From a virus (taxonomy: Duplodnaviria > Heunggongvirae > Uroviricota > Caudoviricetes): a DNA stretch of 64,000 bases. Each line of letters begins with the position of its first letter. Position 1 is the stretch's first letter. Positions 14,238-50,375 of the stretch are shown here, piece after piece. The position numbers were made by a program, and so were the translations under genes. Location: the IMG/VR virus record IMGVR_UViG_3300001357_000001, positions 64,001-128,000 of that record. One strand, written 5' to 3'. The notes under the pieces were generated by a model. That model saw only the letters and a list, made by a program, of their open reading frames with translations. It was not told the origin of the DNA and did no database searches.

Positions 14238-14290
14238 TGCTTTGTTTATTTTGGTTTATATGAACATTGTATATTGAACATTGAACAATA

Positions 14291-15004
14291 CTAAATATTA
14301 GCATTGTTCAATGTTCTTACATCTTTTAATTCTTCTTGTAATTTTGCTCTACATCTGTTTATCATTCCTTTAACCGTTCCCATCTTTAAGTTAAGCATTG
14401 TACTTATTTCCTTATAAGTCATCTCTTTAACAAAAAATAGTTCTGCTATCTGCTTATATTTAGGTTTTAAATTACTTAAAGCCGTATTAATACTATTACT
14501 TAATTCATCATTTTCAATACCGTCATTAGTACTATCATCAACAAATTGGAATATTTCTTTACCATCATCATCAACAAAACTATTTACATTCACGTACTTA
14601 TCGCTGTGATTAGTTCTATAATGGTCAGTTATCATAGATTTGGCAATAACGTGTAAATAAGTACTTATTTTAGCTTGATATACATCGTATTTTTCAAAGT
14701 TCTTATGTAGCTTAATAAATACCTTTGCCGTTATATCCTCGGCTTCAGTCATATTTTTTACCCAACCGTTAACATAATATAATATTTGCTTGTAATTCTT
14801 ATTATATACTTGTTCAAAAGTCTGGTTATCTTTGCCGTTTTTGGCTATACTCCAAGACTTTCTTAAACAATTACTAAAACTTTCATCAACTCTTTCATTC
14901 ACAGGTATTTGATAGAATAATTTCCATGCTCTGCTCATAATTAAAGACATCATTTTCCTATCAAATTTCTTTACTAAATTGTTCTTTTTTGTGGTGCGTT
15001 TCAT
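14291..15004 (-). CDS. ECF-type (sigma70 group 4) RNA polymerase sigma factor
   Basis: Region 2 (AEDITAKVFIKL...ISTYLHVIAKSMITDHYR) and region 4 HTH (LKPKYKQIAELFFVKEMTYKEISTMLNLKMGTVKGMINRCR); start taken at ATG 15004. Confidence 0.9.
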   Translation of the reverse strand: MKRTTKKNNLVKKFDRKMMSLIMSRAWKLFYQIPVNERVDESFSNCLRKSWSIAKNGKDNQTFEQVYNKNYKQILYYVNGWVKNMTEAEDITAKVFIKLHKNFEKYDVYQAKISTYLHVIAKSMITDHYRTNHSDKYVNVNSFVDDDGKEIFQFVDDSTNDGIENDELSNSINTALSNLKPKYKQIAELFFVKEMTYKEISTMLNLKMGTVKGMINRCRAKLQEELKDVRTLNNANI

Positions 15005-15269
15005 AATAATATAATTTAGTATTAAACAATAATTTTGTGTGTGTCGTTTCCTGAGTTTACGCAAGAGTTACAAAAAAGTTTCATTGTGTTACAATTATTT
15101 TTAATTTTTTTTGCATTTTCTTCTGTATTGTACTAATATCAACACATTTAAAAATAAAATAATTTTTTTTTTACTTTTTTAATTAAAAAACGAAACCTTT
15201 TGAAACCCTTTACGTATAATCAGATAAACACGCACGCAAAACATTATTAATAACCAAAACAATAAAACA

Positions 15270-23336: not shown

Positions 23337-23594
23337 ATGGAATGGATTGACATAAATAAACAGAAACCCGATTATGAAAAAGATGTAATTGTGTGTAGAC
23401 CTAATCAATATTCAGGTAAAAAAGACATATTAATTGGAAGATTATATCCTGCAAAACAAGAAGGAACTGAATATGGTCGTGGAAATGGAATGGGTTTATA
23501 TCAAAAAACATACTATGATTATTGGGCTTTACCTGCAATAGTATTATTTGATACAATTACTCATTGGATGCCATTACCAAAAGAACCAAAATAA
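23337..23594 (+). CDS. DUF551-family protein
   Basis: WIDINKQKP...ITHWMPLPKEP. Confidence 0.75.
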   Translation: MEWIDINKQKPDYEKDVIVCRPNQYSGKKDILIGRLYPAKQEGTEYGRGNGMGLYQKTYYDYWALPAIVLFDTITHWMPLPKEPK

Positions 23595-23656
23595 ATTTTG
23601 TTTTTTTGTAACATTTCAATTTTTTTTTCGTAATATTGTATAAGTTCTTTGAATAT

Positions 23657-23860
23657 ACCGAAGTGGACAAATTGGTAAAGTCGCCTTGTTATGAACAGGG
23701 AGATACTCCATTCCTGAGAAGGTTGCAAACTTCACGGGCAAAGAAATATAATTGTAATATGGTAACGTTATTTGAAGCACGTGTAACCAAATTAACAAGA
23801 CTTTAGGACAACATTATTTCTTTCGAGGGGTTGTTGGTTCGAATCCTTCCTTCGGTTCTA
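23657..23860 (+). ncRNA. tRNA-like RNA (anticodon ATG) with ~130-nt structured insertion in variable region
   Basis: Acceptor ACCGAAG/CTTCGGT; D arm GAC-AAATTGGTAAA-GTC; CCTTG-TTATGAA-CAGGG; T loop GGTTCGAATCC; promoter 23607-23634 and boxA 23644. Confidence 0.7.
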
Positions 23861-23869
23861 TAATTAATA

Positions 23870-24275
23870 ACTGATGTAAATAATGCGATAGCTATGCTAC
23901 GTAGACTGTGGGACTCAGCAAAGTTATTTAATTATTACGATTTGATGAAACTAAACAAGCTGGAGTGAATACATATTAATAGAAACGATACCAGTGTCAT
24001 AGACCGAAATGACGTTTAGACGGATTAATGATTAAAGGTTCAATACCTTTACTAATAGCCAAATAAGAGTTAGGTGATATTCCTAAATCATTCAGTGGTG
24101 ATGCAAATCGTTAACTATGTTTGGGGTTGTTTTAAGAATAACCAGAAGAAGAAATAATTTCTTAAAAACAACGAGTGGTCTTTATATAATATGCATAACT
24201 CGACCCAAAGACAAAGGAATCTGGTATTATATAGAATGCTTAACTATACCGATATGTTCCTTTGTCTTCCCAAAC
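23870..24275 (+). ncRNA. Further structured non-coding RNA(s)
   Basis: T-arm AAAGG-TTCAATA-CCTTT followed by ...GCCA at 24034-24061; long stems GTTTGGG/CCCAAAC, GTTGTTTTAAGAA/TTCTTAAAAACAAC, GACAAAGGAA/TTCCTTTGTC. Confidence 0.55.
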
Positions 24276-24291
24276 TTTTAAAATAATAATA

Positions 24292-24906
24292 ATGGAAAAA
24301 CAAGAAAAAGAATTTAATTTCGATAATTTTAATCAAGAAGTTGAAGAAATTGCTTGGGTTATTTTTACCTCTAAATTAGGATTAAGATTTAAAAGAAAAC
24401 TTACTCCTGAAGAAAAGAAAAAAATAACAGATACACCTGATTTTGATTATTATCGAGAAGAAGCACTAAAACATTATCATAAAAAAATAAAAGCACTTGA
24501 TAATAAAAAATATCCTGAAATTGAAGTTCCAGCAAGTGGTGAAGCTACTTGGATGGGTGGTGCTTATGTTCTTTGTTTTGTATATTCCAAATACAATGGT
24601 AATTTTGTATTGAAAGGATATTATAAAGAAGTTAAAGAATATCTGGAAAAAAACTACACACATTATTTTTATTACATGTCATTTTGGTGTCGTGGTTTTT
24701 CAAGAGGTCATTGGAATTTCTGGAAAGAAAATATTGGAATTTTTGAACCCGATATAACTGGAAGAAGAAGAGAAAAGAAATATATTGTCAGACCATATGG
24801 TGGTAGTTGGACTAATGATGCTCCAGATAAAGATGAAATTAAGAAAAAAACATTTAAATTTAAACGTTTACCCAAGCGTTGGATACCAGAATTTGATGTT
24901 TTATAA
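24292..24906 (+). CDS. Hypothetical protein
   Basis: ORF track start TTG 24262; ATG at 24292 more plausible. Confidence 0.65.
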   Translation: MEKQEKEFNFDNFNQEVEEIAWVIFTSKLGLRFKRKLTPEEKKKITDTPDFDYYREEALKHYHKKIKALDNKKYPEIEVPASGEATWMGGAYVLCFVYSKYNGNFVLKGYYKEVKEYLEKNYTHYFYYMSFWCRGFSRGHWNFWKENIGIFEPDITGRRREKKYIVRPYGGSWTNDAPDKDEIKKKTFKFKRLPKRWIPEFDVL

Positions 24907-31548: not shown

Positions 31549-32220
31549 ATGTATAACAATAAATATTGGAAAAATAGAATAATTAAACATAAAGTAAATG
31601 AAAATTTATTTATTAGTGATTTCACAAAAGAATCGTCATATTTACTTGGTTTTATTTGGGGTGATGGATATATTTCGAATGGTGGTACTAATAAACAAAT
31701 TAGAATAGAATGTGTGAGCGATGATATTAATAAATTAATGCCAATTATGAAAAAAACAGGTGTCTGGTGTTTTAATAAACGAAAAAGAATAAATAAGAAA
31801 AGAGAAGTTACTATTGCATCAACAAGTAATAAAGAATTAATTGAATTCTTAATTAAGAATAATTATAAAGATAAATCAAACATGACACCTGAAAAAATAT
31901 TTAATCTAATTCCTTCTCAATATGAAAAATATTTTATTTTAGGTTGGATTGATGCTGATGGATGTTTTTATTGGAATGAAAAACATAAATTACGACAATT
32001 TTATCTTTCAGGTTCATTTGAACAAGATTGGGGTGTTTTTGAACAAATATTAAATCAATTAGATGTACAATATAAAATAATCCGAGTTAATAATAAAACT
32101 AAATATTCTCATATTAGAGTTACAGGTAAATTAAATATTAATAAATTAGGTAATTATATTTTTGATGATATAATTCCATTTCAAAGAAAATATGATAAAT
32201 ATAAATTAATAATTAAATAA
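31549..32220 (+). CDS. LAGLIDADG homing endonuclease
   Basis: YLLGFIWGDGYI and FILGWIDADGCF. Confidence 0.85.
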   Translation: MYNNKYWKNRIIKHKVNENLFISDFTKESSYLLGFIWGDGYISNGGTNKQIRIECVSDDINKLMPIMKKTGVWCFNKRKRINKKREVTIASTSNKELIEFLIKNNYKDKSNMTPEKIFNLIPSQYEKYFILGWIDADGCFYWNEKHKLRQFYLSGSFEQDWGVFEQILNQLDVQYKIIRVNNKTKYSHIRVTGKLNINKLGNYIFDDIIPFQRKYDKYKLIIK

Positions 32221-38027: not shown

Positions 38028-38792
38028 TTATTTTAATTTGATATTTACCCATTTTTTTTCTGTTTTTATATCAGAAATAGTACTTTGAGCAACTTTAAAT
38101 TTTTTTGCGATATCTTTCTGAAAACAACCATTATTTATCATATTTTTTATTTCAATAACATCTTCAGTTCTTAATTTTTTCACGACATTTCCAGAAGCAT
38201 AATTATGTCTTGCATTTTCTGTATGATTAAGCCATTCTAAATTAGATTCACGATTATCAGATTTAATTCCATTAATGTGATTAACTTCTAATTTTAGATT
38301 TACATTATCTTTAAATGTCATAGCAACTAATCTATGAACCCTATTAATTTTTGATTTGTGGTTCTTTGTTAAATTAATTACTAAATAATCTCTTGAAAAA
38401 TATTGTTTCATTATTAAATCTTTACTATTCTTTACTCTCCCATAATTAGAGACATAATATAAATCATCATAATCAGGAATTGATTTCCAAATTTCACCAG
38501 ATAGATTTTTTGATTTTAAATTTAAATAAATTTTTCTTGCACTATTTTTATAATCCTGTTTATCTCTTTCATTTTTAATATCGTTAAAATTAACATTAAC
38601 TTCTTTTAAAGGAATAAAACCATCAGAATTAACTTCTTTCACGTCACCAAAATAAGGAACATGTTCAATATATGGTTGTTGAAAATTGAATTTAATGAAA
38701 ATGAATTCACCTTTACACCATTGTGCAATATTAGTATTTCTACATGTACCAATATAATATACGTTTTCTTTTAATTTAAATTTTTCTATCAT
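38028..38792 (-). CDS. NUMOD4-HNH homing endonuclease with extra N-terminal domain
   Basis: EIWKSIPDYDDLYYVSNYGRVK; VHRLVAMTF...VNHINGIKSDNRESNLEW..H..N. Confidence 0.9.
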   Translation of the reverse strand: MIEKFKLKENVYYIGTCRNTNIAQWCKGEFIFIKFNFQQPYIEHVPYFGDVKEVNSDGFIPLKEVNVNFNDIKNERDKQDYKNSARKIYLNLKSKNLSGEIWKSIPDYDDLYYVSNYGRVKNSKDLIMKQYFSRDYLVINLTKNHKSKINRVHRLVAMTFKDNVNLKLEVNHINGIKSDNRESNLEWLNHTENARHNYASGNVVKKLRTEDVIEIKNMINNGCFQKDIAKKFKVAQSTISDIKTEKKWVNIKLK

Positions 38793-39726: not shown

Positions 39727-41471
39727 TTATTTTTCTCTTAATGTTTCATATATTTTCCTTTCCATTTCAATTCTAATTAAAGTACGATTCATATGGTCTT
39801 CATGAGTAGTAATTGAAGGTTCAACATGAGCGACTCCTTTAATCATTTCAACAGCATTTTTTATTACTTCGAAGTCATCAATTCGATAATCACCATCAAG
39901 TGTTACTGTAAATCCTTTTACCCTGTTTGTCATAATTAATCTAATTTAAATTCAGTAATTACTTTTTTTTCTTTTGGTGTCACAATATTGCCTTTTATTA
40001 TTAGATAAGAATTTTCACCCCAATAATTAGTATCATTATTAGAAGGAATTTCATCAAGGAAATAAACATCATCACCATAATCACCATCAGCAAGTTCTTT
40101 TAAAAATTTTTCTTTATCAATTGGTCTTACTGTTGTGTCACCATCACTATTATGAATTAAATAATAAATTTCTTCACTCATTTTTTTATATTTTAATTAG
40201 TATTTTATTTTATTTTGAGGGCGTGACGGGACTCGAACCCGCAACAACAATGTTTTAGAGACCTTGCGTTCTACCAAGTGAACTTCACGCCCGTTTTACT
40301 CCCTTCACCAGAGGTTGTTTCCAACAGAAGGGAGGTCTTTGTTTCCATTTGTCTCAGTCAGCGAATTCTCTCTCTTTCAACTTAGTCCGTTAATTCGGCT
40401 CGAAATTCGCAGGAATAGCGGAACATTTGCTCGTCCCGACATGTTTTGTTAAAGAACGTTACTTTGCCACCAAATCATCATTGGTCTTATATGTTGACGA
40501 TAAAATAATATTTTAGAATATGTTATTAAAAATTCAGGAAATCCTTTAGGTATACCCTTACAATTATTAACATATTCTTCATAAATATCATTAATATTTT
40601 TTTCATTCATCATCAATTCCAAATATATGTTTCCTAATTATTCTGTAATTATTAAAACTTAAACACATTGCTTTAAACATACCACTATCCTTTGCTACCT
40701 GATAAATATATTTTTCACCTTTTTTTATCGTTTTCTGTAAATCTTTGAGATTAATACGCCATTCCTTTCTTTCTTCAACACTAGTATTATCACAAATATA
40801 AACATAACCATCACAAATTCTATCAAATTGAGAAACAGGATATGTTCGTTTCAATAATTCAAAATCTTTCATCGAATATTTAATTCTTTTTCAAGTTTAA
40901 GTACTTGTTCCAATAATTCATCTTGTTTATCAATCCATATTAGTTGAGTATTTCTTTTAAATATCGCATTCCATTGTCTATTAGGATATTTTATATTACT
41001 TGCACGTTCTAATCTATCAATAAGAGAATAAAATTCATTATTTTCATATATTAATGTGTCGAGTTTATTTATTTGCATTTTAATATAAAGCAAATCTTTG
41101 TTTTCAACACCAACTAATAATTCGTCTCTAATGTCAATTAATTCTTTCATTTAGTTCATGTAAAAAATTTTTTCGTCAAATCTAAATTTAGGATTAAATG
41201 CTGTAATACAATCATTTTCATGAAGGTCATGGTCGAGAACCAGCAATACCAATTCATCAAGTTTATCACCTAATTCCCATTGGTCATTACCTCTTGCAAT
41301 AATATAACCATCATTTACATCGATTTTACTAAAAACAAAAGGCTTGTTGTCTTCATCAATTTCTCTATTAATTGTGCCATGAAAACATCGGTCAAAACCT
41401 TTATTGCCTTTACCTGCTTTCGCCATAAAAATTTCTGTAAGTCCTATTTTATTATTTTTCTTTTTTTCCAT
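39727..41471 (-). CDS. Small hypothetical genes (39727-39933, 39936-40181, 40603-40872, 40869-41150, 41151-41471)
   Basis: ATG ORFs flanking the suppressor tRNA. Confidence 0.55.
40218..40292 (-). tRNA. Amber suppressor tRNA (anticodon CTA)
   Basis: GGGCGTG/CACGCCC acceptor; CAAGGT-CT CTA AA-ACATTG; GCGGG-TTCGAGT-CCCGT. Confidence 0.75.
40297..40445 (-). ncRNA. Candidate structured RNA upstream of suppressor tRNA
   Basis: GCGAATT/GAATTCGC, TGTC/GACA, CTCCCTTC..GTTG-GAAA-CAAC..GAAGGGAG; follows boxA at 40447. Confidence 0.45.
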
Positions 41472-41510
41472 AATATTATATACGAATATACTTATAAAAT
41501 GTTACAAGTT

Positions 41511-42071
41511 CTATAATAAATATTCAGAACTACTATAAAATTCTTGTTCTTTAAATAATTCCAAATTTTTATCCTTATCGCTAACAATAAATCGATTTAA
41601 TTCCCAATCAATATTCAATGTTTCATCATCATATTTAATACCACAATCATAATTAGGTGTATAAACATTATCCACAATATATTGAAATGTTGCTGTTTTT
41701 GATAGTACAACAAAACCATGAGCAAATCCTCTTGGTATATATAGTTGTAACATTTCCTTATCGTTTAATACGAATCTTTCATATTGACCATAGGTTGGTG
41801 AGTCAGTTCTAATATCAACAATAACATCAAGTATTACTCCTTTAATTACAGTAATTATTTTTGCTTGATTATATGGTGGTTTTTGAAAATGCAATCCACG
41901 CAATACATTTTGTTTTGATTTTGATTTATTTACCTGCATTATATTAAAATGTCCTATGTAATCATTTAATAATTTATAATTAAATGTCTCACAAAAATAC
42001 CCACGTTTATCTTTAAATAATGTGGGTTCAATAATTAAAACATCTTTAAGACTAGTTTCTTTTATTTCCAT
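41511..42071 (-). CDS. rfbC: dTDP-4-dehydrorhamnose 3,5-epimerase
   Basis: FKDKRGYFCETF, VLRGLHFQ, QAK, LYIPRGFAHGF. Confidence 0.92.
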   Translation of the reverse strand: MEIKETSLKDVLIIEPTLFKDKRGYFCETFNYKLLNDYIGHFNIMQVNKSKSKQNVLRGLHFQKPPYNQAKIITVIKGVILDVIVDIRTDSPTYGQYERFVLNDKEMLQLYIPRGFAHGFVVLSKTATFQYIVDNVYTPNYDCGIKYDDETLNIDWELNRFIVSDKDKNLELFKEQEFYSSSEYLL

Positions 42072-42088
42072 GTTGGTTTATTTATTAG

Positions 42089-42161
42089 TAGCGGGAACTG
42101 GACTCGAACCAGTAGATACAAGGTTATGAATCTTGCGAGTTACCAATTACTCTATCCCGCA
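42089..42161 (-). tRNA. tRNA-Met(CAT), 1:72 mismatch as in initiators
   Basis: TGCGGGA/TCCCGCT; CAAGA-TT CAT AA-CCTTG. Confidence 0.85.
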
Positions 42162-42167
42162 ATTTAG

Positions 42168-42252
42168 CGGAGGATGGGGGATTCGAACCCCCACAGGTGT
42201 TACCCTGACTTCGGTTTAGCAAACCGGTACGTTACCATTCCGTCAATCCTCC
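42168..42252 (-). tRNA. tRNA-Ser(GCT)
   Basis: GGAGGAT/ATCCTCC; CCGGT-TT GCT AA-ACCGA; long variable arm. Confidence 0.92.
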
Positions 42253-42257
42253 AATAA

Positions 42258-42672
42258 TTATTTCATTTTATTTGCTTCATTAAAGGCATAAAAAGCACCC
42301 ATGCCCTGCTGAAGATTTTCAATATATTTAATTGCTCTGCGTTTAAAAAAAAGACTCCACCAAAACAAAGTAAATCTTTGTTTTGTACTTAACCATTTTA
42401 ATGATTTTTCAAATGCTTTTTGTTGTTCTTTATCTATTTTAGTCATATTATTCTTTTTTTGGTGGAAATGCTTTTAATATATCTGGATGTGCTTCATAAC
42501 TACCCCATGTTTCACCACATTCATTATAATACCATTCAATTAATTCTTCATTAATAAATCCTTTTACTGCACTTCTAATATCTTTATATCTATAAGCATT
42601 TAACGCCTTTAGAATAATTTTTTCTATTTTTTTTGCTGTGATTTCAGCATGTATTTCACTAACTATACTCAT
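42258..42672 (-). CDS. Two small hypothetical genes (42258-42446, 42448-42672)
   Basis: Abutting ATG ORFs. Confidence 0.5.
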
Positions 42673-42677
42673 ATTAA

Positions 42678-43037
42678 TTAAATTATATCAATAACAGCAC
42701 CTAATTCTTCAAGTTCGTCTTTAATTTCTTCGGCATTAATTAATGTTGTTCCATTAATTAATTGACACGGAGCACTATCAATAATATCTTTTGCTTCTTT
42801 AAGACCAAGACCTAATAATTCTTTTATTCTCTTTAAAACAACTAACTTATTAAAACCTACATTACTTAATTGAACATTATAAATTTTATTCTCATCAGAA
42901 ACACCTATTCCAAAAGGAAATTTATAGATATTTGAGTTATAACCATATTTGTCCCAAAGGACAATATTTAAATTATCGAGTTCTTCTGAAGTTAATCTAG
43001 ATATACTACGTGCTATTTCATTTATATTTCTTTCCAT
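42678..43037 (-). CDS. rplL: Ribosomal protein L7/L12-like
   Basis: NKLVVLKRIKELLGLGLKEAKDIIDSAP...AEEIKDELEELGAVIDI. Confidence 0.8.
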   Translation of the reverse strand: MERNINEIARSISRLTSEELDNLNIVLWDKYGYNSNIYKFPFGIGVSDENKIYNVQLSNVGFNKLVVLKRIKELLGLGLKEAKDIIDSAPCQLINGTTLINAEEIKDELEELGAVIDII

Positions 43038-43041
43038 GAAT

Positions 43042-43245
43042 TTATTTCTTTATAAAATATTTGGCATAATGAAAATCGCCATCGTTTACAATCTCTGTTT
43101 CGATATTCATTGTTTTTCGTAAATCAAAGATAACTGCTGCTAATCTCATGCATCTGAATTCTGTGAGTGCCTCTAATGGAGTAATTTCATTTCCATTTAA
43201 TAAATGTTCCTTAATTAAATCTCTTTGTGTTTTTTTATTTTTCAT
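43042..43245 (-). CDS. Small helix-turn-helix protein
   Basis: TQRDLIKEHLLNGNEITPLEAL..FRCMRLAAVIFDLRK. Confidence 0.7.
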   Translation of the reverse strand: MKNKKTQRDLIKEHLLNGNEITPLEALTEFRCMRLAAVIFDLRKTMNIETEIVNDGDFHYAKYFIKK

Positions 43246-43500
43246 GATTTCATATTTTAATATTACAATAATACTAAAAATTCTTAACATTTTAATATTT
43301 TATTATACGAAAAAAGAAATAGATTGTTACAAATGTGCGTTTTTAACTACTGGCATTGATATTAAATCCATAGTATATGAACCATTGTCATAAATAGTTA
43401 CTGTTGTTATACTATTCCAAAATAAAACCGCTTTTCTATCGGCATCGGTTCTTAATTTATCCCAATTTTTAATATTTAAGTTTTTCATATAAAAAGTTTT

Positions 43501-43808
43501 AAAAAATAGCTTGAGCGTACCCAGAATTTTGTTGTTAATCATCATTTATCTATGCACCAACCCGATTATTATTGAGTTGCTTTCCCTCTAAATCTGTTTG
43601 GCTTGCACCCTCGGCAGTGCAAATGATAACTTCGGGTCTTTCGGGGATTCTGGTTTGATGAGCCTATTACAATCCCTTTTTAGCATTTCTCATCCTAACA
43701 GCTTTAACTTGTTATCTCCTGCCTTTAGCAATGGTGTCCTGAAGTTCCTCCATCTTGACATCACAATTTGTGACCTCAAAACAGCGATGAATCCTCTTAG
43801 CTATTTTT
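43501..43808 (-). ncRNA. rnpB: RNase P RNA (bacterial type, ~308 nt)
   Basis: P1 AAAAATAGCT/AGCTATTTTT; CR-I GAGGAACTTCAGG covarying with CR-V ACAAAATTCTGGGTAC (P4); GCAAGCCAAA; TAGATAAATG. Confidence 0.85.
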
Positions 43809-44281
43809 CATTTTCTTGTGTGATGGGGTAGATTGCTTTTTAGTATAATCACACAATTTTTTTTGTAATATGATTTAAATTTTCCTTCATTTAATTGGCT
43901 TTCAATTTCTCTAGTCATTTCATCATTATCATATGCTCGTTTTTCTTTTTTATTCCAAATATTACCATTTTTAGGAATATAACCTCTTAGTTTATTATCA
44001 TAACCCCAATAAATAATAAAACAAATTGGATATTCCCAATCACCACCAGCATTTACAAAAAATACATGAAATCCTTCTTTAAGTTCTCTATATCCAACAG
44101 GATATTCGGCAAATCCTTCAGTATATTTATAATCAGTGTAATTTTCACAGTCAAAATTAATTTTAGATAAATCTTGCCAAATTTTAGGTGTCATTTCATA
44201 TGGATATTCTTCATTATCCATTACTTCTTTAATTTTATTAAAAAAATCATCTTTACTAATTTCACCGTAGTATCTTGCCAT
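43808..44281 (-). CDS. Hypothetical protein (3' end uncertain, A8 run)
   Basis: ATG ORF; GGDWEYP motif. Confidence 0.6.
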   Translation of the reverse strand: MARYYGEISKDDFFNKIKEVMDNEEYPYEMTPKIWQDLSKINFDCENYTDYKYTEGFAEYPVGYRELKEGFHVFFVNAGGDWEYPICFIIYWGYDNKLRGYIPKNGNIWNKKEKRAYDNDEMTREIESQLNEGKFKSYYKKNCVIILKSNLPHHTRK

Positions 44282-44308
44282 AATTAAATATGTATTAATT
44301 AATAATTG

Positions 44309-44384
44309 AGCAGGTTATGGGACTCGAACCCACTAAATCCTTTTGCTTGGCAAGCAAATATGCAACCAGTTACACCTAACCCGC
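44309..44384 (-). tRNA. tRNA-Gly(GCC)
   Basis: GCGGGTT/AACCTGC; TTTGC-TT GCC AA-GCAAA. Confidence 0.9.
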
Positions 44385-44528
44385 ATATAGTGAAGAATAC
44401 TTAGGCAGCCACTTAATACTATGTTTCCACGTACTCATTAAACATGGTCTTTACCATATACTCTTCACTGCCTATATCATTTTAATATCGAGAACGCTTT
44501 GGTAACAAATATAGGACTTTCTCGCTCT

Positions 44529-45366
44529 TTATGGTAACAATTTAAATGTTTCCATATTTTTTCTTAATTTTTCGTTTTCAGCAATAATTGCATAATCATC
44601 TGCTTTCACATATGCTTCATGCTGATTAATTGCTTTAACGTAAAAGTTTAGAACTCTACCACTCGTAAGCGTGAGTTCAACCAGCCAATATTTCATAACT
44701 GGTTTTGCTGCTTTCTTTTTTTGTTTATTCATAATCTTAGTCTAAGCAGTAAAAGACTAAGATGTATCGTTTTCTTTTTTCATAATAAATGATTTGGTAT
44801 GTCTTCTTCGCAAATAAATACGTATTTGACATTATTTTTTCGATATTGTTTAAATTTTGAAGGTAAATCATCACAAGTACCACTATATAAATGAACACAG
44901 TGGTCGTGATAATAACCAGTTGTTTTTACCATTAAACCTTCCCAAGTATTAGCATATACAGCAATTATTTTTGTCGCCATAATTACTTTAATTTTCCCTT
45001 ATTTACTCTAGGGTTATATTTTTCCCAATGTTTTCGATATTTACTTATTTGTTTATCTAAATTAATATCAAGATTATTCTCTCTACGATGTAAAGAAGTA
45101 AATATGATTCCACTCATATCATCAGCATGAAAAATGCCTTGTGAATTGAACCACGCAACGGCAGGACCGTCATGCCATAACTGTAAAGTATTTCTAATAA
45201 ATGTACCATAACCATGATGAATCATCATAGCATCGTCTTCTGGTACTGATAACCATTTTTTAAATTTTTCACTACCTTCAGTTGAACACATATGACTTTT
45301 AACCCAATCCATACATTCATCAAGATTTCTGGTTTCTTCAATATTAAATTCTAATTTATCATCCAT
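44529..45366 (-). CDS. Small genes; 44983-45366 is DUF6794-like
   Basis: HHGYGTFIRNTLQLW...GIFHADDMSGIIF. Confidence 0.55.
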
Positions 45367-45387
45367 TTTATTGTTATTTAAATTTAG

Positions 45388-45463
45388 AACACCCGAAGGG
45401 ATTCGAACCCCCGACCCCCAAGTTCGTAGCTTGGTGCTCTAAATCCAACTGAGCTACGGGTGC
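45388..45463 (-). tRNA. tRNA-Arg(ACG)
   Basis: GCACCCG/CGGGTGT; CCAAG-CT ACG AA-CTTGG. Confidence 0.93.
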
Positions 45464-45822
45464 ATATTTGGTTTTCATCATAAGCGTAAGGATAACCAAA
45501 AACCTCGTAAACCAATGCCTTATGTTTATTTTAATAATTCAATCATTAAATCTCTTTTTCTCTCGCTATATACAATAATCATACAATGACCAGTATTATC
45601 GATAAATGCATAACCAGTTAATGGTTTATCATCAACAACTAATATTGTGTTCATTGTTTCTATTGTATATTTCATTTTAATCACAATTAATATTTAATTG
45701 ATTTGGATTCATATTAATATGTTCATATGCATCATCTTTATTATCAAATGATAAATATTCATCATAATCTTTATCATAACGTTCGGGATAATATTTATTA
45801 TTTATTTTTCTTACTCTATATT

Positions 45823-46690
45823 TCATATTAAATTATATGTTTTTGCCCATCTTCTTACAGCATTATCACTAACACCAAAAATTTTACCTATTTTTATGAA
45901 TGAATTATTATTAATTAATTTATTTAATTCTTTTTTTGATGGTCTATTTTTTACTTTTCTATCATTAATTCCTTTACAAACTTTACATCTTTTTGCTTTT
46001 TGTGTAATATTAGTACCACAATCAATACATTTGTTTTGATTAATATTTTTTTCTTTTTTGCTTTATTTCAAAATATTGTTTAGTATAAAAATTAATTTCT
46101 TCTTCATTTAAACTAAATTTTTTTAAATCATTAATTAATTGATTTATTATTTTATCTACATAAATTAAACTATAATGAATATTTATTATTTCCCAACCAT
46201 TTTCATTTAATATATTATTTCTTTCTAAATAATATTTTTTTAATGTGCCATTATTATTATAATGTTGATTACCATTAATTTCAACACCAATTAATTTATT
46301 TGGAAATGCTATATCAATACTATAATATTTATCAATCAATGGTTGATACTCTTCAATAAATGAAATATTTGCATTTTTTAATTTTTTCTTAAAAATTTCA
46401 CATGGTTTAGAAATAAATTTATTATTCATTTTCCACGGATGTTTATCTGGATTATTTTTTAAATATTTTTTACGTGCATTACTTATTTTTTTCTTACTTT
46501 CGCTGGTATGTTTAATTTTATGTAATCTCTTTATTAAATAACCTTCTTTTACCGCACGTTTTAACACAGTTAAACTAATATTAACTTTTTTAGGTAAATG
46601 AATCCAGTAAACACCCTCGTCATGTATTTTCTGAATTTTTTTCCAATCAATATTATTTAAATCTATTTTATTCATACATTCATTTTTCAT
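45823..46690 (-). CDS. DUF559/Vsr-like endonuclease with zinc-ribbon/HTH tail in a second frame (frameshift ~46045)
   Basis: IDIAFPNKLIGVEINGNQHY; other frame reads CIDCG...RCKVC...GKIFGVSDNAVRRW to TGA 45823. Confidence 0.65.
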
Positions 46691-46731
46691 ATAAATACTT
46701 TAAGTTAAGTAAATGTTCGAAAAATATTTTG

Positions 46732-46812
46732 AAGTGGTGGTGGGATTCGAACCCACATTTTCAGTTCCAATTACACGATATCGGTTTAGAAGACCGATGT
46801 GACTACACCACC
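46732..46812 (-). tRNA. Non-canonical tRNA-Arg(TCT): no D arm in normal position, D-loop-like segment after anticodon arm
   Basis: GGTGGTG-TAGTCAC-ATCGGT CT TCT AA ACCGAT-ATCGTGTAATTGGAACTGAAAAT-GTGGG TTCGAAT CCCAC-CACCACT. Confidence 0.7.
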
Positions 46813-46824
46813 ATGTTGTTGAGT

Positions 46825-47220
46825 CTATTGACTCAACATTTCTTTAACAATTGTACTAGCTGTTTTTTCATCTATTTGAGAAGCAACTGGTAATGTTTTA
46901 ATTTTACCCATTACTTTTCCCATATCTTTCATGCCTGAAAATTTATTAACATTAATAATTTCAGTAATGATATTTTTTATTTGGTTTTCATCAAGCATTT
47001 GAGGTAAATATTTTTCAAGTATTTTAACTTCATCATTATTACCTTGTTCTTTTGCATTTTCAGACATTTTACGAAGAACTTTAATTGACTGTTCATCAGT
47101 TAATTCTTTACCAATTCTTGAAAATTCCCCTGAAACAACTCTTAATAAGCTAAGTTCTTCAGTATTTTTACTTTTCATGGCATTTACCATGTCATTTTTA
47201 ATTTGTTCTTGTAATGTCAT
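46825..47220 (-). CDS. yqeY: GatB/YqeY domain protein
   Basis: MTLQEQIKNDMVNAMKSKN...EVKILEKYLPQML...MKDMGKVMG. Confidence 0.88.
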   Translation of the reverse strand: MTLQEQIKNDMVNAMKSKNTEELSLLRVVSGEFSRIGKELTDEQSIKVLRKMSENAKEQGNNDEVKILEKYLPQMLDENQIKNIITEIINVNKFSGMKDMGKVMGKIKTLPVASQIDEKTASTIVKEMLSQ

Positions 47221-47292
47221 AAGTATTATTTTTGATTGTTAATATTAATCTCGCCATTTACTCGTCATTTTGGCGAGATTGAGACGAAGATG

Positions 47293-47867
47293 TTATTTTA
47301 ATAAATCTTTTAATTGTTCTCGAACATGTGCTTTATAATTTTCAATTATTCTTATCTTTCCTCTTGCTGCTGGATGATGAATGTAATAATGTTTTATTTG
47401 TTGCTTTTTAAGCTCTCTCTCGACCTTTCTTCCCATAGCAACAACAATACCATTAAATGATTTAATGTCTTTAATATCATCCTCAAAAACGTTTTTAAAA
47501 GTTAATTTATTCCAATCTAATCCTAATGCATCAGTTGCTTTAGATAAATGTGCTGCTGCAAGTCTTCTATCCTTCCAAGTCCAACCTTTTTCAATTGCTG
47601 TTGGACTTCTTTCTTCACCAACAAATAATATGTTTTGCATAATATTTATTTTTTATATAAAACATTTTCTTTAACAATAGAAAATTTTTCTTCAGGAATA
47701 CTATCCTCTAATTTTCTAATTTGGTCTTCAATCTGTCTTTTCTTCTTGGCATCAGGACATTCACATTCATAATATAGCAAATATTCTTCATAACGACCAT
47801 CAATTTCTTTTCCACAAAATAAACAAATATTATATTCCCAAGATGAAATTATTCTTTGCTTTTCCAT
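47293..47867 (-). CDS. Hypothetical genes (47293-47640 weakly UDG-like; 47646-47867 CxxC)
   Basis: HHPAARG motif in the first. Confidence 0.5.
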
Positions 47868-47889
47868 ATTTAAATTTGTTTTATGTTTG

Positions 47890-47961
47890 CGCTCTGAGAG
47901 GGATTTGAACCCCCGACCAATAGATTAACAGTCTACTGCTCTACCACTGAGCTACCAGAGC
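47890..47961 (-). tRNA. tRNA-Asn(GTT)
   Basis: GCTCTGG/TCAGAGC; GTAGA-CT GTT AA-TCTAT. Confidence 0.93.
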
Positions 47962-48243
47962 ATTATTCAGTATTTTCGTTAATATCATCATTTACATATC
48001 CAATAACAATACCTATTACACCAATTAATAGTGATGTTGCTAATAGTTTTAAATTAAAAAATTCAATGGGTGCAAAACCCCATATTCCAGCAATAATTGA
48101 ATAAATAATACCGATAAAAAACATTGTAAATGCAATTTTTTTAACATTATCTTTTGTAAAATAATTAATGAAATTTTCAATTGTTTTAATATTTAATTTT
48201 AATTACCAAAGTTAATCAAATTATATTAAAAAACAAATAAAAG

Positions 48244-48285
48244 TTGACCCCACGAGACTCGAACTCGTAATCTCTTCGTTATGAA
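48244..48285 (-). pseudogene. 3' half only of a tRNA(CAT)
   Basis: TTCATAA-CGAAG-AGATT-ACGAG TTCGAGT CTCGT-GGGGTCA; 5' half replaced by end of HNH ORF. Confidence 0.7.
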
Positions 48286-48830
48286 TTTAATTTTTCATAA
48301 TATTTAACCCATTTCCTAATTGTATTATCTGAAACTCCATATTTTTTTCCAACAGAAACATAATTTGTTTCATTAATTTCTTTTAATAATAGTTCATAAT
48401 CAGGACGAACTACTTTTCTCTGCGATATTGAATTACATTTTTTACACCTATTATAACCATAATTAATTTCAATGCCACAATCAATGCATTTTGGTTTATT
48501 TATAGTTCGAATTGAAATAACTTTTTCATTAATGTTCTCTAACATTTTATCTAAATCGTTTATATTTAAATTGGGATGATGAGTTTCTCTATGGCAATTA
48601 GAACATAGCAAATTACATTTAGATACTTCTTCAATTAATTTAGACATTTTAGTATTTGCTAATTTCCTTACATCTAATTTAAATTCTTTTTCATTTGGGT
48701 CAATATGATGGAAATCAAATGCTGCGATATTTTTTGAATATCCACATTTTTCACATTTACCACCTTTTAATTTAATTAATTCTAATTTTCTTTTTAAACC
48801 TCTTAATTTTTGATATTCATATGTATTCAT
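48279..48830 (-). CDS. HNH endonuclease with zinc ribbon and HTH tail
   Basis: CEKCG...FDFHHIDP...CNLLCSNCHRETH. Confidence 0.88.
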   Translation of the reverse strand: MNTYEYQKLRGLKRKLELIKLKGGKCEKCGYSKNIAAFDFHHIDPNEKEFKLDVRKLANTKMSKLIEEVSKCNLLCSNCHRETHHPNLNINDLDKMLENINEKVISIRTINKPKCIDCGIEINYGYNRCKKCNSISQRKVVRPDYELLLKEINETNYVSVGKKYGVSDNTIRKWVKYYEKLNS

Positions 48831-48891
48831 AATAATGTTTTAATAATAAATACACGGAAATTATGAAAAGTATCATAAAAATAATCGTTAC

Positions 48892-48967
48892 TGGTAGTGA
48901 AGGTGGGATTCGAACCCACAACCTTGACGATATAAGCGTCCTGCGCTGACCGTTGCGCCACATCACT
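48892..48967 (-). tRNA. tRNA-Ile(TAT)
   Basis: AGTGATG/CTTCACT-A-CCA; GGACG-CT TAT AT-CGTCA. Confidence 0.88.
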
Positions 48968-49039
48968 ATATATTCTCTTTTAACCATTAGATAATTATTA
49001 GCCAAACGTTTATGAGAATTTAACACCAAATGTAATTAA

Positions 49040-49387
49040 TTATCTTCCTTCATATACCCACATAACAGCATTACAATATGCGTGTACAGCACCTTCAGTC
49101 ATTCCTGTTTCATGATTATGTTGCAATTGAATAGGATGATTTAAAAAATCAGGTGGAAATAAATCCCAATCAATTTTTTTTATTAAAATTTCTATTGGTG
49201 GAAGTTCATCTAATTTACAACCACAATAAAAACATTTATTATCTTGTTCTTCAATATATTGTTCTCTAACTAATTTTTTTTCGAAGCCTTGTAATTTTGT
49301 ATAATCAACAGGTAAATTATATTTCATATTAATAACTTTTATTTGTTCTATATCTTTCTCTTCTTTTATGTCTTCCATTACCAGCAT
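49040..49387 (-). CDS. Endonuclease VII-like HNH protein
   Basis: QDNKCFYCG...LQHNHETGMTEGAVHAYCN. Confidence 0.7.
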   Translation of the reverse strand: MLVMEDIKEEKDIEQIKVINMKYNLPVDYTKLQGFEKKLVREQYIEEQDNKCFYCGCKLDELPPIEILIKKIDWDLFPPDFLNHPIQLQHNHETGMTEGAVHAYCNAVMWVYEGR

Positions 49388-50012
49388 TGAGGGATTTATA
49401 TGTTGGAGTTAATGAATGACAATTTGGACATAGTAATTCTAAATTAGTTAAATTATTATTTTCAGAATTACCGTCTTTATGTTCTAATTCTATTGGTACT
49501 TTTCCAGTAATCGGATGTCTTTCATTCCAACCACATTTCATACATTTATTACCATGTCTTTCAATTAAATATTTTTTATATGTTTCTGAAGGATAATTAT
49601 TATAACCATTTTCTATGTTTGATTTTCGAATATTCCAATCGTATTTTACTTTACATGTTATTGAACAATATTTGATTTGACGATACGATAATTCATTATT
49701 ACACCAAATACAATATTTTTTATTACGTTTTCTTTTAACATGAATTTTATTATTTATTGTTGCAGCACATGAATTTGAACAATATTTTCTATTTTCAGAT
49801 ATTAATGAAGTAAATAATTCCCCACAATTTAAACAAGATTTTTCAATATAATAAGCATCTTTATTTTGTTTATAACCTAATTTATTTAATTTCTCTTTAA
49901 TTGCTTTTGGTGTTCTATCGATATTTTTTGATATTTCATTATACGTCATTCCGTTTTCACATAATGTTATTATTTTTTTTACGTCATAATCAGACCATCT
50001 TTTTCTTTTCAT
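49329..50012 (-). CDS. HNH endonuclease
   Basis: CMKCG...ELEHKDGNSENNNLTNLELLCPNCHS. Confidence 0.92.
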   Translation of the reverse strand: MKRKRWSDYDVKKIITLCENGMTYNEISKNIDRTPKAIKEKLNKLGYKQNKDAYYIEKSCLNCGELFTSLISENRKYCSNSCAATINNKIHVKRKRNKKYCIWCNNELSYRQIKYCSITCKVKYDWNIRKSNIENGYNNYPSETYKKYLIERHGNKCMKCGWNERHPITGKVPIELEHKDGNSENNNLTNLELLCPNCHSLTPTYKSLNAGNGRHKRRERYRTNKSY

Positions 50013-50074
50013 AATATTTATTTTATTATAAATACTATGAAAAAATAAAAAGACTAAAATCTATTTCGAAATAG

Positions 50075-50157
50075 AGCCTCCTGTCAGATTCGAACTGACG
50101 AGTTCTTTCGAAACTGGGTTACAAATCCAGCGCAATCGACCACTATGCGAAGGAGGC
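50075..50157 (-). tRNA. tRNA-Thr(TGT), long variable arm
   Basis: GCCTCCT/AGGAGGC; CTGGA-TT TGT AA-CCCAG. Confidence 0.88.
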
Positions 50158-50213
50158 ATGGAGAGGGACAGGTTATTTATACCTTTATATAGGGACTCCC
50201 TCAGACCCTTTTG

Positions 50214-50286: not shown

Positions 50287-50375
50287 ATTATCTCGACTTT
50301 TTACTGAATGCACTCATTCACCTGCAAGTTACAGTAGGTCTTACATTCGAGTGACCTTTAGGCGGTTTTTTTATG

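What the first reader, a model, noticed from the sequence alone, without database searches (positions are those of the whole stretch)
23607..23860. tRNA-like RNA with a 130-nt domain in the variable arm and AUG anticodon
Seen: a complete acceptor, D arm, anticodon arm (TT-ATG-AA) and T loop enclose a multibranch insert (ACTCC/GGGGT; GAAG..CTTC; AAAGAAATA/TATTTCTTT long stem). The insert holds a 22-codon open frame GCA-AAG...TAG (AKKYNCNMVTLFEARVTKLTRL), reminiscent of a tmRNA tag. However, the RNA has D and anticodon arms and no G3:U70, so it is not a canonical tmRNA. It has its own promoter and boxA. A34 His-type anticodons are very rare in bacteria. It could be an intron-bearing tRNA, a decoy, or a tRNA-mRNA hybrid.
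Basis: partly seen in the sequence, partly recalled or inferred. Interest (0 to 1): 0.75.

Follow-up and report, generated by a model that had tools for sequence, protein, structure and literature searches.

The report
Phage tRNA look-alike with giant arm
A 348-kb jumbo phage carries, right behind one of its own promoters, a 201-base RNA gene built like a tRNA but with a 130-base folded domain where the short variable loop should be; it most likely acts as a tRNA mimic or carrier rather than as a decoder, and it is not a tmRNA.

Summary
Window 23657-23857 (+) has a 7/7 acceptor stem, a D arm, a canonical anticodon arm (loop TTATGAA) and a consensus T loop. These enclose a 133-nt three-way-junction domain at the variable-loop position.

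ARAGORN and Rfam miss the intact element. ARAGORN calls it tRNA(atg) once the domain is deleted in silico.

The promoter is real: the motif TGTAACA-N15/16-CGTAWWAT occurs 13 times in the window against 0.03 expected. The boxA-like GTTCTTTGAA recurs upstream of tRNA genes.

The tmRNA reading fails. The 22-codon frame appears in 87% of shuffles, lies inside a hairpin, and has no counterpart in relatives.

The closest relatives of the locus lack the element. It is a 224-nt cassette sitting at the transcript start of a conserved structured leader.

Other phages of the clade carry different tRNA-like genes in the same slot. One set of four (157-166 nt) shares a covarying two-hairpin arm, with "anticodon" loops of 6, 8, 13 and 14 nt, so those cannot decode.

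The window's copy has no orthologue, a weak T stem (3/5 pairs) and no HisRS identity marks.

Best reading, about 0.5: an expressed tRNA mimic or scaffold. Rivals are a decaying gene and a true decoder. This scan's earlier notes report similar giant-armed phage tRNA-like RNAs on other DNA. No expression data could be obtained.

The parts
23607..23636 (+). Phage-type promoter, TGTAACA-N15-CGTAATAT; the transcript should start near 23643-23645.
   Evidence: There are 13 matches to TGTAACA-N15-22-CGTAWWAT in the window against 0.03 expected from shuffles. The same motif precedes the DUF2227 gene and the equivalent slot in related phages.
23644..23653 (+). boxA-like motif GTTCTTTGAA, read as an antitermination signal for an untranslated transcript. 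That function is inferred.
   Evidence: The only other exact copy in the window (60028-60037, - strand) lies upstream of a tRNA cluster, and a 1-mismatch copy (51443-52, -) lies upstream of the large tRNA cluster. The same motif precedes tRNA-like or ncRNA genes in L028, L270, L004, L001 and L290.
23644..23867 (+). 224-nt cassette (boxA-like motif, tRNA-like gene and 10-nt trailer) that is present here and absent in the closest relatives of the locus.
   Evidence: In the alignment with L289, L285 and L287, the promoter runs straight into TAACTGATGTAAAT... or TTTGATGAAAC... in the relatives. TATAA stands at both edges (23639-43 and 23859-63), which is weak evidence in AT-rich DNA.
23657..23857 (+). 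The tRNA-like RNA gene, 201 nt, position 1 to discriminator U73. The trailer CTA follows, as in several of the phage's own tRNA genes.
   Evidence: The intact element is not called by ARAGORN or Rfam.
23657..23663 (+). Acceptor stem, 5' strand ACCGAAG; pairs 7 of 7 with 23850-23856.
23666..23682 (+). D arm GACA-AATTGGTAA-AGTC: 3 pairs plus A.A, G18 G19 present. This is the Leu/Gln/Glu-type D arm of many phage tRNAs.
   Evidence: The 18-mer pattern hit 46 IMG/VR stretches, many of them tRNA-Leu, Gln or Glu genes. Closest is tRNA-Gln(CTG) with an 18-nt variable arm in L021 and L027, 86-88% identical over 43 nt.
23684..23700 (+). Anticodon arm CCTTG-TTATGAA-CAGGG: 5 pairs (one of them a G-U pair) and a canonical 7-nt loop with U33, anticodon AUG and A37.
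   Evidence: The loop is not conserved in relatives, where it is 6, 7, 8, 13 or 14 nt.
23701..23832 (+). Giant variable-arm domain, a three-way junction: closing stem 23705-09/23827-31, hairpin A 23713-38, and long irregular hairpin B 23740-23823.
   Evidence: MFE equals centroid at -28 kcal/mol, z -1.87, 9 of 200 shuffles as good. The same topology appears in the constrained fold of the whole RNA. No homologue of this domain was found.
23738..23806 (+). I judge it a chance frame, not a tag.
   Evidence: 87% of shuffled inserts have a stop-free run of at least 22 codons, and the frame is part of a 49-codon run starting at base 1 of the RNA. It lies within both strands of hairpin B.
23833..23849 (+). 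T arm GTTGG-TTCGAAT-CCTTC: consensus T loop with a weak stem (G-C, U.U, U.U, G-C, G-C). GAGGG at 23825-29 would pair perfectly with CCTTC if the 8 nt GTTGTTGG were absent.
   Evidence: the phage's other tRNAs have 5/5 pairs. The MFE fold uses the alternative helix GAGGGGUU/AAUCCUUC.
23850..23857 (+). Acceptor 3' strand CTTCGGT plus discriminator T. No CCA is encoded.
23868..24291 (+). Downstream part of the same untranslated transcript: a conserved ~250-nt RNA, then a ~155-nt leader (24120-24275) with two GCWTAAC hairpins, before the conserved 204-aa gene at 24292-24906. This is context, not part of the tRNA-like RNA.
   Evidence: It is conserved in L289, L285, L287 and L282. The leader has 13 of 28 pairs with compensatory changes in 16 sequences. 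The protein has 370 homologues.

Best explanation
The element is an expressed, tRNA-derived non-coding RNA: a tRNA mimic or scaffold with a hypertrophied variable arm, not a working decoder.

Proposed course of events:
1. The phage promoter at 23607-36 starts a long untranslated transcript. The boxA-like motif protects it from premature termination.
2. Host RNase P cuts before A23657 and a 3' tRNA-processing enzyme cuts after U23857.
3. This releases a stable ~201-nt L-shaped RNA and frees the 5' end of the conserved downstream RNA and leader.
4. The tRNA body supplies folding, processing and stability, and probably allows CCA addition.
5. The 130-nt three-way-junction arm is the cargo. It would bind a partner, most plausibly a host or defence factor that recognises tRNAs, so that the RNA acts off the ribosome.

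Shown here: the anatomy, the promoter, the motif, the cassette-like presence or absence, the occupancy of the same slot by tRNA-like genes in related phages, and the fact that the long ones and L290 cannot decode. Inferred: transcription, processing, stability and any partner.
For: - The core is a genuine tRNA body: 7/7 acceptor stem, D arm, anticodon arm and T loop. ARAGORN calls it a tRNA once the arm is deleted, and the 5' half is 88% identical to phage tRNA-Gln(CTG) genes that already carry an 18-nt variable arm.
- It is wired for expression. It has the phage's own promoter motif (13 copies against 0.03 expected). It has GTTCTTTGAA, which otherwise sits upstream of tRNA clusters. Its trailer N73-CTA matches several of the phage's tRNA genes.
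- The slot between this promoter and the conserved leader holds tRNA-like genes in many relatives. L004, L270, L001 and L211 are 157-166 nt. L028 is 179 nt. L290 has a GAAT tetraloop in place of the anticodon loop. L006, L257, L258 and L261 are 92-96 nt.
- The four-member set has a conserved hairpin A plus long hairpin B in the variable region, with 20 of 39 pairs changed on both sides. Its anticodon-position loops of 6, 8, 13 and 14 nt exclude decoding.
- The window's own arm has the same general topology: a short hairpin followed by a long hairpin.
- The window RNA lacks G-1 and C73, the bacterial HisRS marks (sequence plus textbook identity rules). A 130-nt arm is far beyond any known class II variable arm.
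- The phage carries a T4 Rnl1-type RNA ligase (62715-63806) and a weak Pth2-like match (below Pfam's cut-off). This hints at a phage whose biology turns on tRNA damage and repair.
Against: - No orthologue of this particular RNA or its arm was found, so there is no covariation or conservation test for the window's own copy.
- The covariance model of the four-member set matches the window only through the tRNA core: 42.5 bits, against 30-45 bits for ordinary tRNAs.
- The T stem is defective compared with all other tRNAs of the phage. The cloverleaf costs about 9 kcal/mol against the MFE fold. A decaying gene would look the same.
- Unlike its relatives, the window copy keeps a perfectly canonical anticodon loop. 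A mimic does not need one.
- The closest relatives do without the element.
Confidence: 0.5

Rival explanations
1. A decaying or neutral tRNA-derived cassette. On this view a Gln/Leu-type phage tRNA gene had its variable arm expanded and its T arm damaged by an 8-nt insertion or duplication. It is carried along at the 5' end of the transcript without any function of its own, or at most serves as a cleavage site.
For: - The T stem has 3 of 5 pairs, while 18 of the phage's 19 scorable other tRNAs have 5/5 and one has 4/5.
- GAGGG...CCTTC would form a perfect stem if GTTGTTGG were removed. The MFE fold abandons the T loop.
- The anticodon AUG is one substitution away from the CUG of the closest tRNA-Gln genes.
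- The closest relatives lack the element.
- It is a singleton in every collection searched.
Against: - The promoter, boxA-like motif, 7/7 acceptor stem, D arm, anticodon arm and T-loop consensus are all intact.
- The 133-nt arm folds into one dominant structure.
- Related phages maintain comparable giant-armed RNAs with compensatory changes.
Confidence: 0.2
2. A working tRNA that decodes CAU (or is charged by GlnRS or LeuRS), either with the giant arm tolerated on the ribosome or without it after removal.
For: - It has a canonical 7-nt anticodon loop with U33 and A37 on a 5-bp stem.
- The positional counterparts in L003, L006, L257 and L258 carry the His anticodon GTG (L261 reads GTG in a non-canonical loop), and AUG belongs to the same codon box.
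- No tRNA-His is among the 20 tRNAs of this window.
Against: - G-1 and C73 are absent (sequence; bacterial HisRS identity rules from textbook knowledge).
- The body is Gln/Leu-type, unlike the His-type genes of the relatives.
- A34 outside tRNA-Arg is very rare in bacteria (own knowledge).
- The arm is about 5 times longer than any class II arm.
- The T stem is weak.
- Giant-armed relatives have loops that cannot decode.
Confidence: 0.15
3. An intron-bearing tRNA. On this view the 133-nt domain is cut out, either by itself or by a nuclease, and the halves are joined (for instance by the phage's Rnl1-type ligase) to give a ~70-nt tRNA.
For: - Lak megaphages were reported to carry tRNAs with 'enigmatic introns' (PMC6784885).
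- Other tRNA genes of this clade have 125-145-nt inserts in or next to the anticodon loop. One of them is flanked by a 12-nt direct repeat (L003 6495-6711, L211 1973-2177).
- The window encodes an RNA ligase.
Against: - No group I or II signature appears at E up to 10, and 133 nt is below the size of known self-splicing introns (own knowledge).
- The insert is in the variable region, the natural place for an arm, and begins as the arm of related tRNA-Gln genes does.
- In the four-member set, removing the arm would still leave non-decoding loops.
Confidence: 0.07
4. A tmRNA-like tRNA-mRNA hybrid that tags proteins with ...TKLTRL.
For: There is an open frame starting with GCA. A related RNA (L004) gave a weak, non-significant Rfam tmRNA alignment driven by the tRNA-like ends (10.6 bits against a gathering score of 47).
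Against: - The frame is not significant, lies inside a hairpin, and is not conserved.
- D and anticodon arms are present and no pseudoknots are predicted.
- Pair 3:70 is C-G.
- ARAGORN finds no tmRNA, and Rfam finds none in the window at E up to 10.
Confidence: 0.02

Closest known systems
Class II tRNAs (Leu, Ser, Tyr) and phage tRNA-Gln(CTG)/tRNA-Leu genes with the GACAAATTGGTAAAGTC D arm (e.g. IMG/VR loci L021 and L027)
   Same: The cloverleaf core, D-arm sequence and anticodon-arm sequence match (88% over 43 nt). The extra arm emerges at the same place, between positions 44 and 48.
   Different: The arm is 133 nt with three helices instead of 10-20 nt with one. The T stem is weak, the anticodon is AUG, and gene finders do not call it.
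tRNAs with 'enigmatic introns' in Lak megaphages (Devoto et al. 2019, PMC6784885)
   Same: Both are low-GC huge phages with stop-codon recoding elements and tRNA genes interrupted by long, unclassifiable sequence.
   Different: The Lak inserts were predicted as introns by running tRNAscan with eukaryote settings. Here the insert is in the variable region, and related copies cannot decode. This phage is about 348 kb, not about 540 kb.
The giant-armed tRNA-like set defined here (model R1: L004, L270/L271, L001/L002, L211)
   Same: Both have a tRNA core with the same D arm, a short hairpin plus a long hairpin in the variable region, and the same genomic slot behind the phage promoter and boxA-like motif.
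   Different: The window's arm has no sequence similarity to theirs. It lacks the conserved 6x6 internal loop UGAUA/UGAAGA, has an extra closing stem, and keeps a canonical anticodon loop.
tRNA-like processing elements: plant mitochondrial t-elements (PMC1920247) and mascRNA at the end of MALAT1 (own knowledge)
   Same: These are tRNA-shaped modules inside longer transcripts that recruit RNase P and RNase Z to make RNA ends. Here, tRNA-like genes flank other non-coding RNAs and the leader in the same way.
   Different: Those elements are small and carry no large extra domain. Processing here is inferred, not shown.
tmRNA (Rfam RF00023)
   Same: It has tRNA-like ends enclosing a large internal domain.
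   Different: Here D and anticodon arms are present, there is no G3:U70, no pseudoknots are predicted, there is no credible tag frame, and neither ARAGORN nor Rfam detects it.
Engineered 'tRNA scaffold' for expressing recombinant RNA (Ponchon and Dardel; PMC3753655)
   Same: A structured RNA is embedded in a tRNA body so that the cell processes and stabilises it.
   Different: The engineered cargo replaces the anticodon arm, whereas here the cargo sits in the variable region. A natural function is not known.

Membership tests
Canonical tRNA (Rfam RF00005; ARAGORN) | Cloverleaf: 7-bp acceptor stem, D arm with G18 G19, 5-bp anticodon stem with a 7-nt loop and U33, and a T loop TTCRANY | tested here: met
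   Read from the sequence. ARAGORN at default settings calls tRNA(atg) when 23701-23832 is deleted in silico.
Canonical tRNA (Rfam RF00005; ARAGORN) | The whole gene is recognised by the covariance model or gene finder, which requires a variable region of at most about 25 nt | tested here: not met
   ARAGORN makes no call. Rfam gives no tRNA match at gathering or at E up to 10.
Canonical tRNA (Rfam RF00005; ARAGORN) | A fully paired 5-bp T stem, as in the phage's own tRNAs | tested here: not met
   The element has 3 of 5 pairs (two U.U). Of 19 scorable other tRNAs, 18 have 5/5 and one has 4/5.
Canonical tRNA (Rfam RF00005; ARAGORN) | Aminoacylation identity fitting the anticodon (bacterial tRNA-His: G-1 paired with C73) | tested here: not met
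   Base -1 is T and base 73 is T. The identity rule comes from textbook knowledge.
Canonical tRNA (Rfam RF00005; ARAGORN) | Charged and used on the ribosome | not testable with these tools
   This needs aminoacylation assays or ribosome-bound RNA.
tmRNA (RF00023 and permuted forms) | G3:U70 in the acceptor stem, for charging by AlaRS | tested here: not met
   Pair 3:70 is C-G.
tmRNA (RF00023 and permuted forms) | No D stem and no anticodon arm; pseudoknots around a single-stranded tag frame | tested here: not met
   D and anticodon arms are present, and the frame lies in hairpin B. Pseudoknots were not predicted, and the folding tool used cannot predict them.
tmRNA (RF00023 and permuted forms) | A conserved tag reading frame | tested here: not met
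   The frame is expected by chance (87% of shuffles), and relatives have no comparable frame.
tmRNA (RF00023 and permuted forms) | Detected by ARAGORN or Rfam | tested here: not met
Group I intron in a tRNA gene (RF00028) | Inserted in the anticodon loop; conserved catalytic core; matches the Rfam model | tested here: not met
   The insert follows the complete anticodon arm, is 133 nt long, and gives no intron match at E up to 10.
   The model aligns only the tRNA core of the window element, at 42.5 bits. That is the range of ordinary tRNAs (30-45 bits), against 154-164 bits for members. MAFFT shows no arm similarity.
   The window has a canonical 7-nt loop, whereas members have 6, 8, 13 and 14 nt.
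Lak-type intron-bearing phage tRNAs (PMC6784885) | A long unclassified insert in a phage tRNA gene | tested here: met
Lak-type intron-bearing phage tRNAs (PMC6784885) | The insert is predicted as an intron by eukaryote-type tRNA gene finding | tested here: not met
   The insert lies between the anticodon arm and the T arm.
Y RNA-like YrlA (tRNA-like module plus Ro60-binding stem) | The RNA ends form a long Ro-binding stem, there is a Ro60/Rsr partner gene, and the RNA matches the Rfam model | tested here: inconclusive
   There is no Rfam match. The ends form an acceptor stem rather than a long stem. No TROVE domain was found among the larger ORFs scanned (about 40 in all). The rest of the 348-kb genome could not be searched.

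The most novel reading that the evidence does not exclude
Jumbo phages of this clade may use the tRNA body as a natural expression and stability scaffold. On this view they plug different large structured RNA domains into the variable-loop position. The window's 201-nt RNA would then be a processed, CCA-tailed and possibly charged tRNA mimic. Its 130-nt arm would bind and neutralise a host tRNA-directed factor, for example an anti-phage tRNA nuclease or a tRNA-processing or tRNA-charging enzyme. That would make it an RNA-based counter-defence or takeover device.
Probability: 0.25. Interest if true: 0.8.

Novelty: new variant of a known kind. Interest (0 to 1): 0.5.

Why it matters
Phage tRNA genes are usually read as codon-supply or as spare parts against tRNA-cutting defences. 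This element suggests that some phage "tRNA genes" which gene finders miss are not decoders at all. It has a complete tRNA body and an arm about five times longer than any known variable arm. Related phages hold covarying giant-armed, non-decoding relatives in the same promoter-proximal slot. Together these point to tRNA-shaped carriers of other RNA domains. If that is confirmed, it would add a class of phage non-coding RNAs and a natural counterpart of the engineered tRNA scaffold. It would also explain long, ORF-free, highly expressed intergenic regions noted in huge phages. For this particular copy the case is weaker, because it has no orthologue and a damaged-looking T stem.

Tried and rejected
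- Intact element: ARAGORN and Rfam (gathering, and E up to 10) gave nothing.
- BLAST of 23560-24300 against GenBank phages gave no match.
- Exact and degenerate pattern scans gave no orthologue. These were a 30-mer of the T arm in IMG/VR, the anticodon-arm pattern in JGI metagenomes, and a gapped D-arm...T-loop pattern with a 131-161 nt gap (the three hits looked like chance). The pattern for the four-member set found nothing in 185,579 prokaryote genomes.
- The 14-mer GTTTAGGTTCTGCT scan was swamped by chance hits.
- The search for related loci with the two flanking small proteins found nothing in IMG/VR.
- The window's genome is not held. The ENA record that contains it (L255, identical over 6,258 bases) cannot be searched whole. 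I therefore could not check for a normal tRNA-His or tRNA-Gln elsewhere in the phage.
- Downstream 204-aa protein: no Pfam or PHROG family. The AlphaFold model (pLDDT 83) had no PDB match by Foldseek, best E 0.04. It gives no clue to a partner.
- A second 'T arm plus GCCA' at 24034-24061 was considered as another tRNA mimic and rejected. The fold is not better than shuffles. In L285 the same hairpin has a covarying stem but a different loop, TGGAATT against TTCAATA.
- The sarcin-ricin-like motif seen in related loci is not in the window.
- No other copy of the insert, and no antisense target for it, is present in the window.
- The sigma-70-like match inside the insert (23723-52) is within chance for this AT-rich region: 10 found against 6.3 expected.
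Full report
WHAT IS THERE

Window 23657-23857 (+ strand) reads as a tRNA with a very large insertion. Its parts are:
- acceptor ACCGAAG / CTTCGGT, 7 of 7 pairs
- TG
- D arm GACA-AATTGGTAA-AGTC
- G
- anticodon arm CCTTG-TTATGAA-CAGGG
- a 133-nt domain (23701-23832/3)
- T arm GTTGG-TTCGAAT-CCTTC
- discriminator T, followed by CTA

The domain folds on its own into one dominant structure. MFE equals centroid at -28 kcal/mol, z -1.87, and 9 of 200 shuffles do as well. The structure has a closing stem ACTCC/GGGGT, a short hairpin A (23713-38) and a long irregular hairpin B (23740-23823).

ARAGORN and Rfam do not call the intact element, even at E up to 10. When the domain is deleted in silico, ARAGORN at default settings calls a tRNA with anticodon atg.

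One caveat: the T stem has only three pairs. Of the phage's 20 other tRNAs, 19 could be scored; 18 have five pairs and one has four. An unconstrained fold also prefers an alternative helix, GAGGGGUU/AAUCCUUC, which destroys the T loop. That fold reaches -54 kcal/mol, against -45.1 for the enforced cloverleaf.

THE 'TAG' FRAME

The 22-codon frame 23738-23806 is part of a 49-codon stop-free run that starts at the first base of the RNA. Of shuffled inserts, 87% contain a stop-free run of at least 22 codons. The frame runs through both strands of hairpin B. Related RNAs have no frame at a comparable place: the longest Ala-start frames are 3 codons in L004 and 8 in L270. Pair 3:70 is C-G. The tmRNA idea can be set aside.

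GENOME AND TRANSCRIPTION UNIT

The window is a low-GC (about 27%) jumbo phage. It is identical to part of a 348,137-bp ENA metagenome contig. It holds:
- 20 tRNA genes, including a CUA suppressor
- a ribonucleotide reductase with an intein
- homing endonucleases, a sigma factor, a weak Pth2-like match (below Pfam's cut-off) and a T4 Rnl1-type RNA ligase

The motif TGTAACA-N15/16-CGTAWWAT occurs 13 times against 0.03 expected. One copy is at 23607-36.

GTTCTTTGAA at 23644-53 has one other exact copy in the window, upstream of the tRNA cluster near 59.8 kb. A one-mismatch copy lies upstream of the large tRNA cluster. The same motif precedes tRNA-like or other ORF-free RNA genes in related phages. 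It resembles the boxA antitermination signal, but that function is inferred.

Downstream lie about 250 nt of conserved ORF-free sequence and a 155-nt leader with two GCWTAAC hairpins. In the leader, 13 of 28 pairs show compensatory change in 16 sequences. Then comes a conserved 204-aa protein gene (24292-24906) with 370 homologues and no known family or fold.

A CASSETTE IN A HOT SPOT

In the closest relatives of this locus (L289, L285, L287), the promoter runs directly into the conserved downstream RNA. Relative to L289, the window has 224 extra bases (23644-23867). These comprise the boxA-like motif, the tRNA-like gene and a short trailer, with TATAA at both edges.

Other relatives carry other tRNA-shaped genes between the same promoter and the same leader:
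- a normal tRNA-His(GTG), a second short tRNA-like gene that ARAGORN does not call, and a 217-nt interrupted tRNA (L003)
- 92-96-nt genes with a ~20-nt insert behind the anticodon (L006, L257, L258, L261); L006-L258 read GTG in a canonical loop, L261 in a non-canonical one
- a tRNA-like gene with a GAAT tetraloop instead of an anticodon loop (L290)
- long ones of 157-179 nt (L004, L270, L001, L211, L028)

THE LONG RELATIVES

L004, L270, L001 and L211 align well. They share the D arm of the window element and a two-hairpin arm at the variable position. Their long hairpin has a conserved 6x6 internal loop (UGAUA / UGAAGA). Of 39 consensus pairs, 20 show changes on both sides. Their loops at the anticodon position are 6, 8, 14 and 13 nt, so they cannot decode. 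L028 has a 7-nt loop without U33. None has an Rfam family.

A covariance model of the four scores members at 154-164 bits, L028 at 57 and the window element at 42.5. Ordinary tRNAs with the same D arm score 30-45. The window element therefore shares the tRNA core and the general design (short hairpin plus long hairpin in the variable region), but not a homologous arm. No orthologue of the window's own arm turned up anywhere.

ORIGIN OF THE CORE

The D-arm 18-mer is typical of phage tRNA-Leu, Gln and Glu genes. The best match to the 5' 43 nt is a tRNA-Gln(CTG) that already carries an 18-nt variable hairpin (L021, L027; 86-88% identity). The loop differs from it at positions 32 and 34 (CTCTGAA against TTATGAA).

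INTERPRETATION

The best-supported reading is an expressed tRNA mimic or scaffold. It would be transcribed first in a long untranslated RNA and cut out by the host's tRNA-processing enzymes, which would also free the downstream RNA. It would be stabilised by the tRNA fold, with the 130-nt arm as the working part acting off the ribosome. Everything after 'transcribed' is inference. I give this about 0.5.

The main rival, at 0.2, is a decaying or neutral cassette. The defective T stem, the lack of orthologues and the absence of the element in the closest relatives all fit that.

A true decoder gets 0.15. It is kept alive by the perfectly canonical anticodon loop and by the coincidence that several positional counterparts carry the His anticodon GTG. 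Against it stand the missing G-1 and C73, the non-His body, A34, the size of the arm and the weak T stem.

Splicing gets 0.07. It has no positive evidence beyond the precedent of 'enigmatic introns' in Lak megaphage tRNAs (PMC6784885) and the presence of an RNA ligase.

KNOWN AND NEW

I found no Rfam family and no paper describing tRNA-like RNAs with an arm of this size. The nearest published items are the Lak tRNA introns, tRNA-like processing elements (t-elements, PMC1920247) and the engineered tRNA scaffold (PMC3753655). Earlier notes of this scan report giant-armed or cargo-bearing tRNA-shaped RNAs in other jumbo phages. I did not test those notes; they are leads, not support. I class the element as a new variant of a known kind.

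LIMITS

- The rest of the 348-kb genome could not be searched.
- The window's arm has no comparative support.
- Pseudoknots were not modelled.

Noticed in passing
window 24120-24275 (and L289, L285, L282, L004, L028, L006, L003, L259, L260, L258, L261, L266, L270, L290, L291): A conserved structured leader lies directly upstream of the conserved 204-aa gene. It has a closing helix TTTRGG/CCYAAA, a long covarying helix, and two similar hairpins whose loops read ATAGAACGCTTAAC. In 16 sequences, 13 of 28 pairs show compensatory change. It has no Rfam family and may be a protein- or ligand-binding operator.
   Followed up: partly
window 23868-24119: This ORF-free stretch is conserved with L289, L285, L287 and L282 (TAACTGATGTAAAT..., TTTGATGAAACTAAACAAGCTGGAGTGAATACATATTAATAG...). 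The 'second T arm' at 24036-52 is a plain hairpin whose stem covaries but whose loop is not conserved.
   Followed up: partly
L001 6590-7020 and L004 7900-8330: A ~420-nt conserved ORF-free RNA sits between tRNA-like genes. It contains two hairpins whose loops read RTACGAGAGGA, like the sarcin-ricin loop of 23S rRNA. It has no Rfam hit and is not present in the window.
   Followed up: no
L006 7229-7320, L257 4748-4839, L258 716-807, L261 5768-5863: These are 92-96-nt tRNA-His(GTG)-like genes with a conserved ~20-nt insert (a small hairpin plus GAAGTA) just 3' of the anticodon loop. They occupy the same promoter-proximal slot.
   Followed up: no
L003 6495-6711 and L211 1973-2177: These tRNA genes carry 125-145-nt inserts in or next to an anticodon loop reading CATAAAG. 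In L211 the insert is flanked by a 12-nt direct repeat, ATAAAGAGTGCC, so the boundary is ambiguous. This is typical of an intron or a mobile insert.
   Followed up: no
L290 about 1605-1680: A tRNA-like gene has an anticodon stem closed by a GAAT tetraloop, so it has no anticodon. It sits directly upstream of the conserved leader and follows about 450 nt of ORF-free, GC-richer sequence.
   Followed up: no
window, 13 sites (e.g. 914-943, 22248-77, 23607-36, 43302-31): The phage-specific promoter motif TGTAACA-N15/16-CGTATAAT occurs 13 times against 0.03 expected. A sigma-70-family gene lies at 14246-15064.
   Followed up: partly
window 40217-59846, tRNA genes: Most of the phage's tRNA genes are followed by C-A/T-A after the discriminator (CAA or CTA) rather than CCA; two have CCA. 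Five tRNAs are called by Rfam but not by ARAGORN. Rfam at gathering threshold calls no RNase P RNA anywhere in the window.
   Followed up: no
window 62715-63806 (-), 54647-58402 (-), 31549-32220 (+), 38028-38792 (-): The window encodes a T4 Rnl1-type RNA ligase, a ribonucleotide reductase large subunit interrupted by an intein with a LAGLIDADG domain, and free-standing LAGLIDADG and HNH/NUMOD4 endonuclease genes.
   Followed up: no
L246 3846-3982 and 4076-4205: Two 130-137-nt tRNA-like genes in a 435-kb IMG/VR contig share an internal motif, GAGTTACTTCAAAG. They were found by model R1 through their tRNA core.
   Followed up: no
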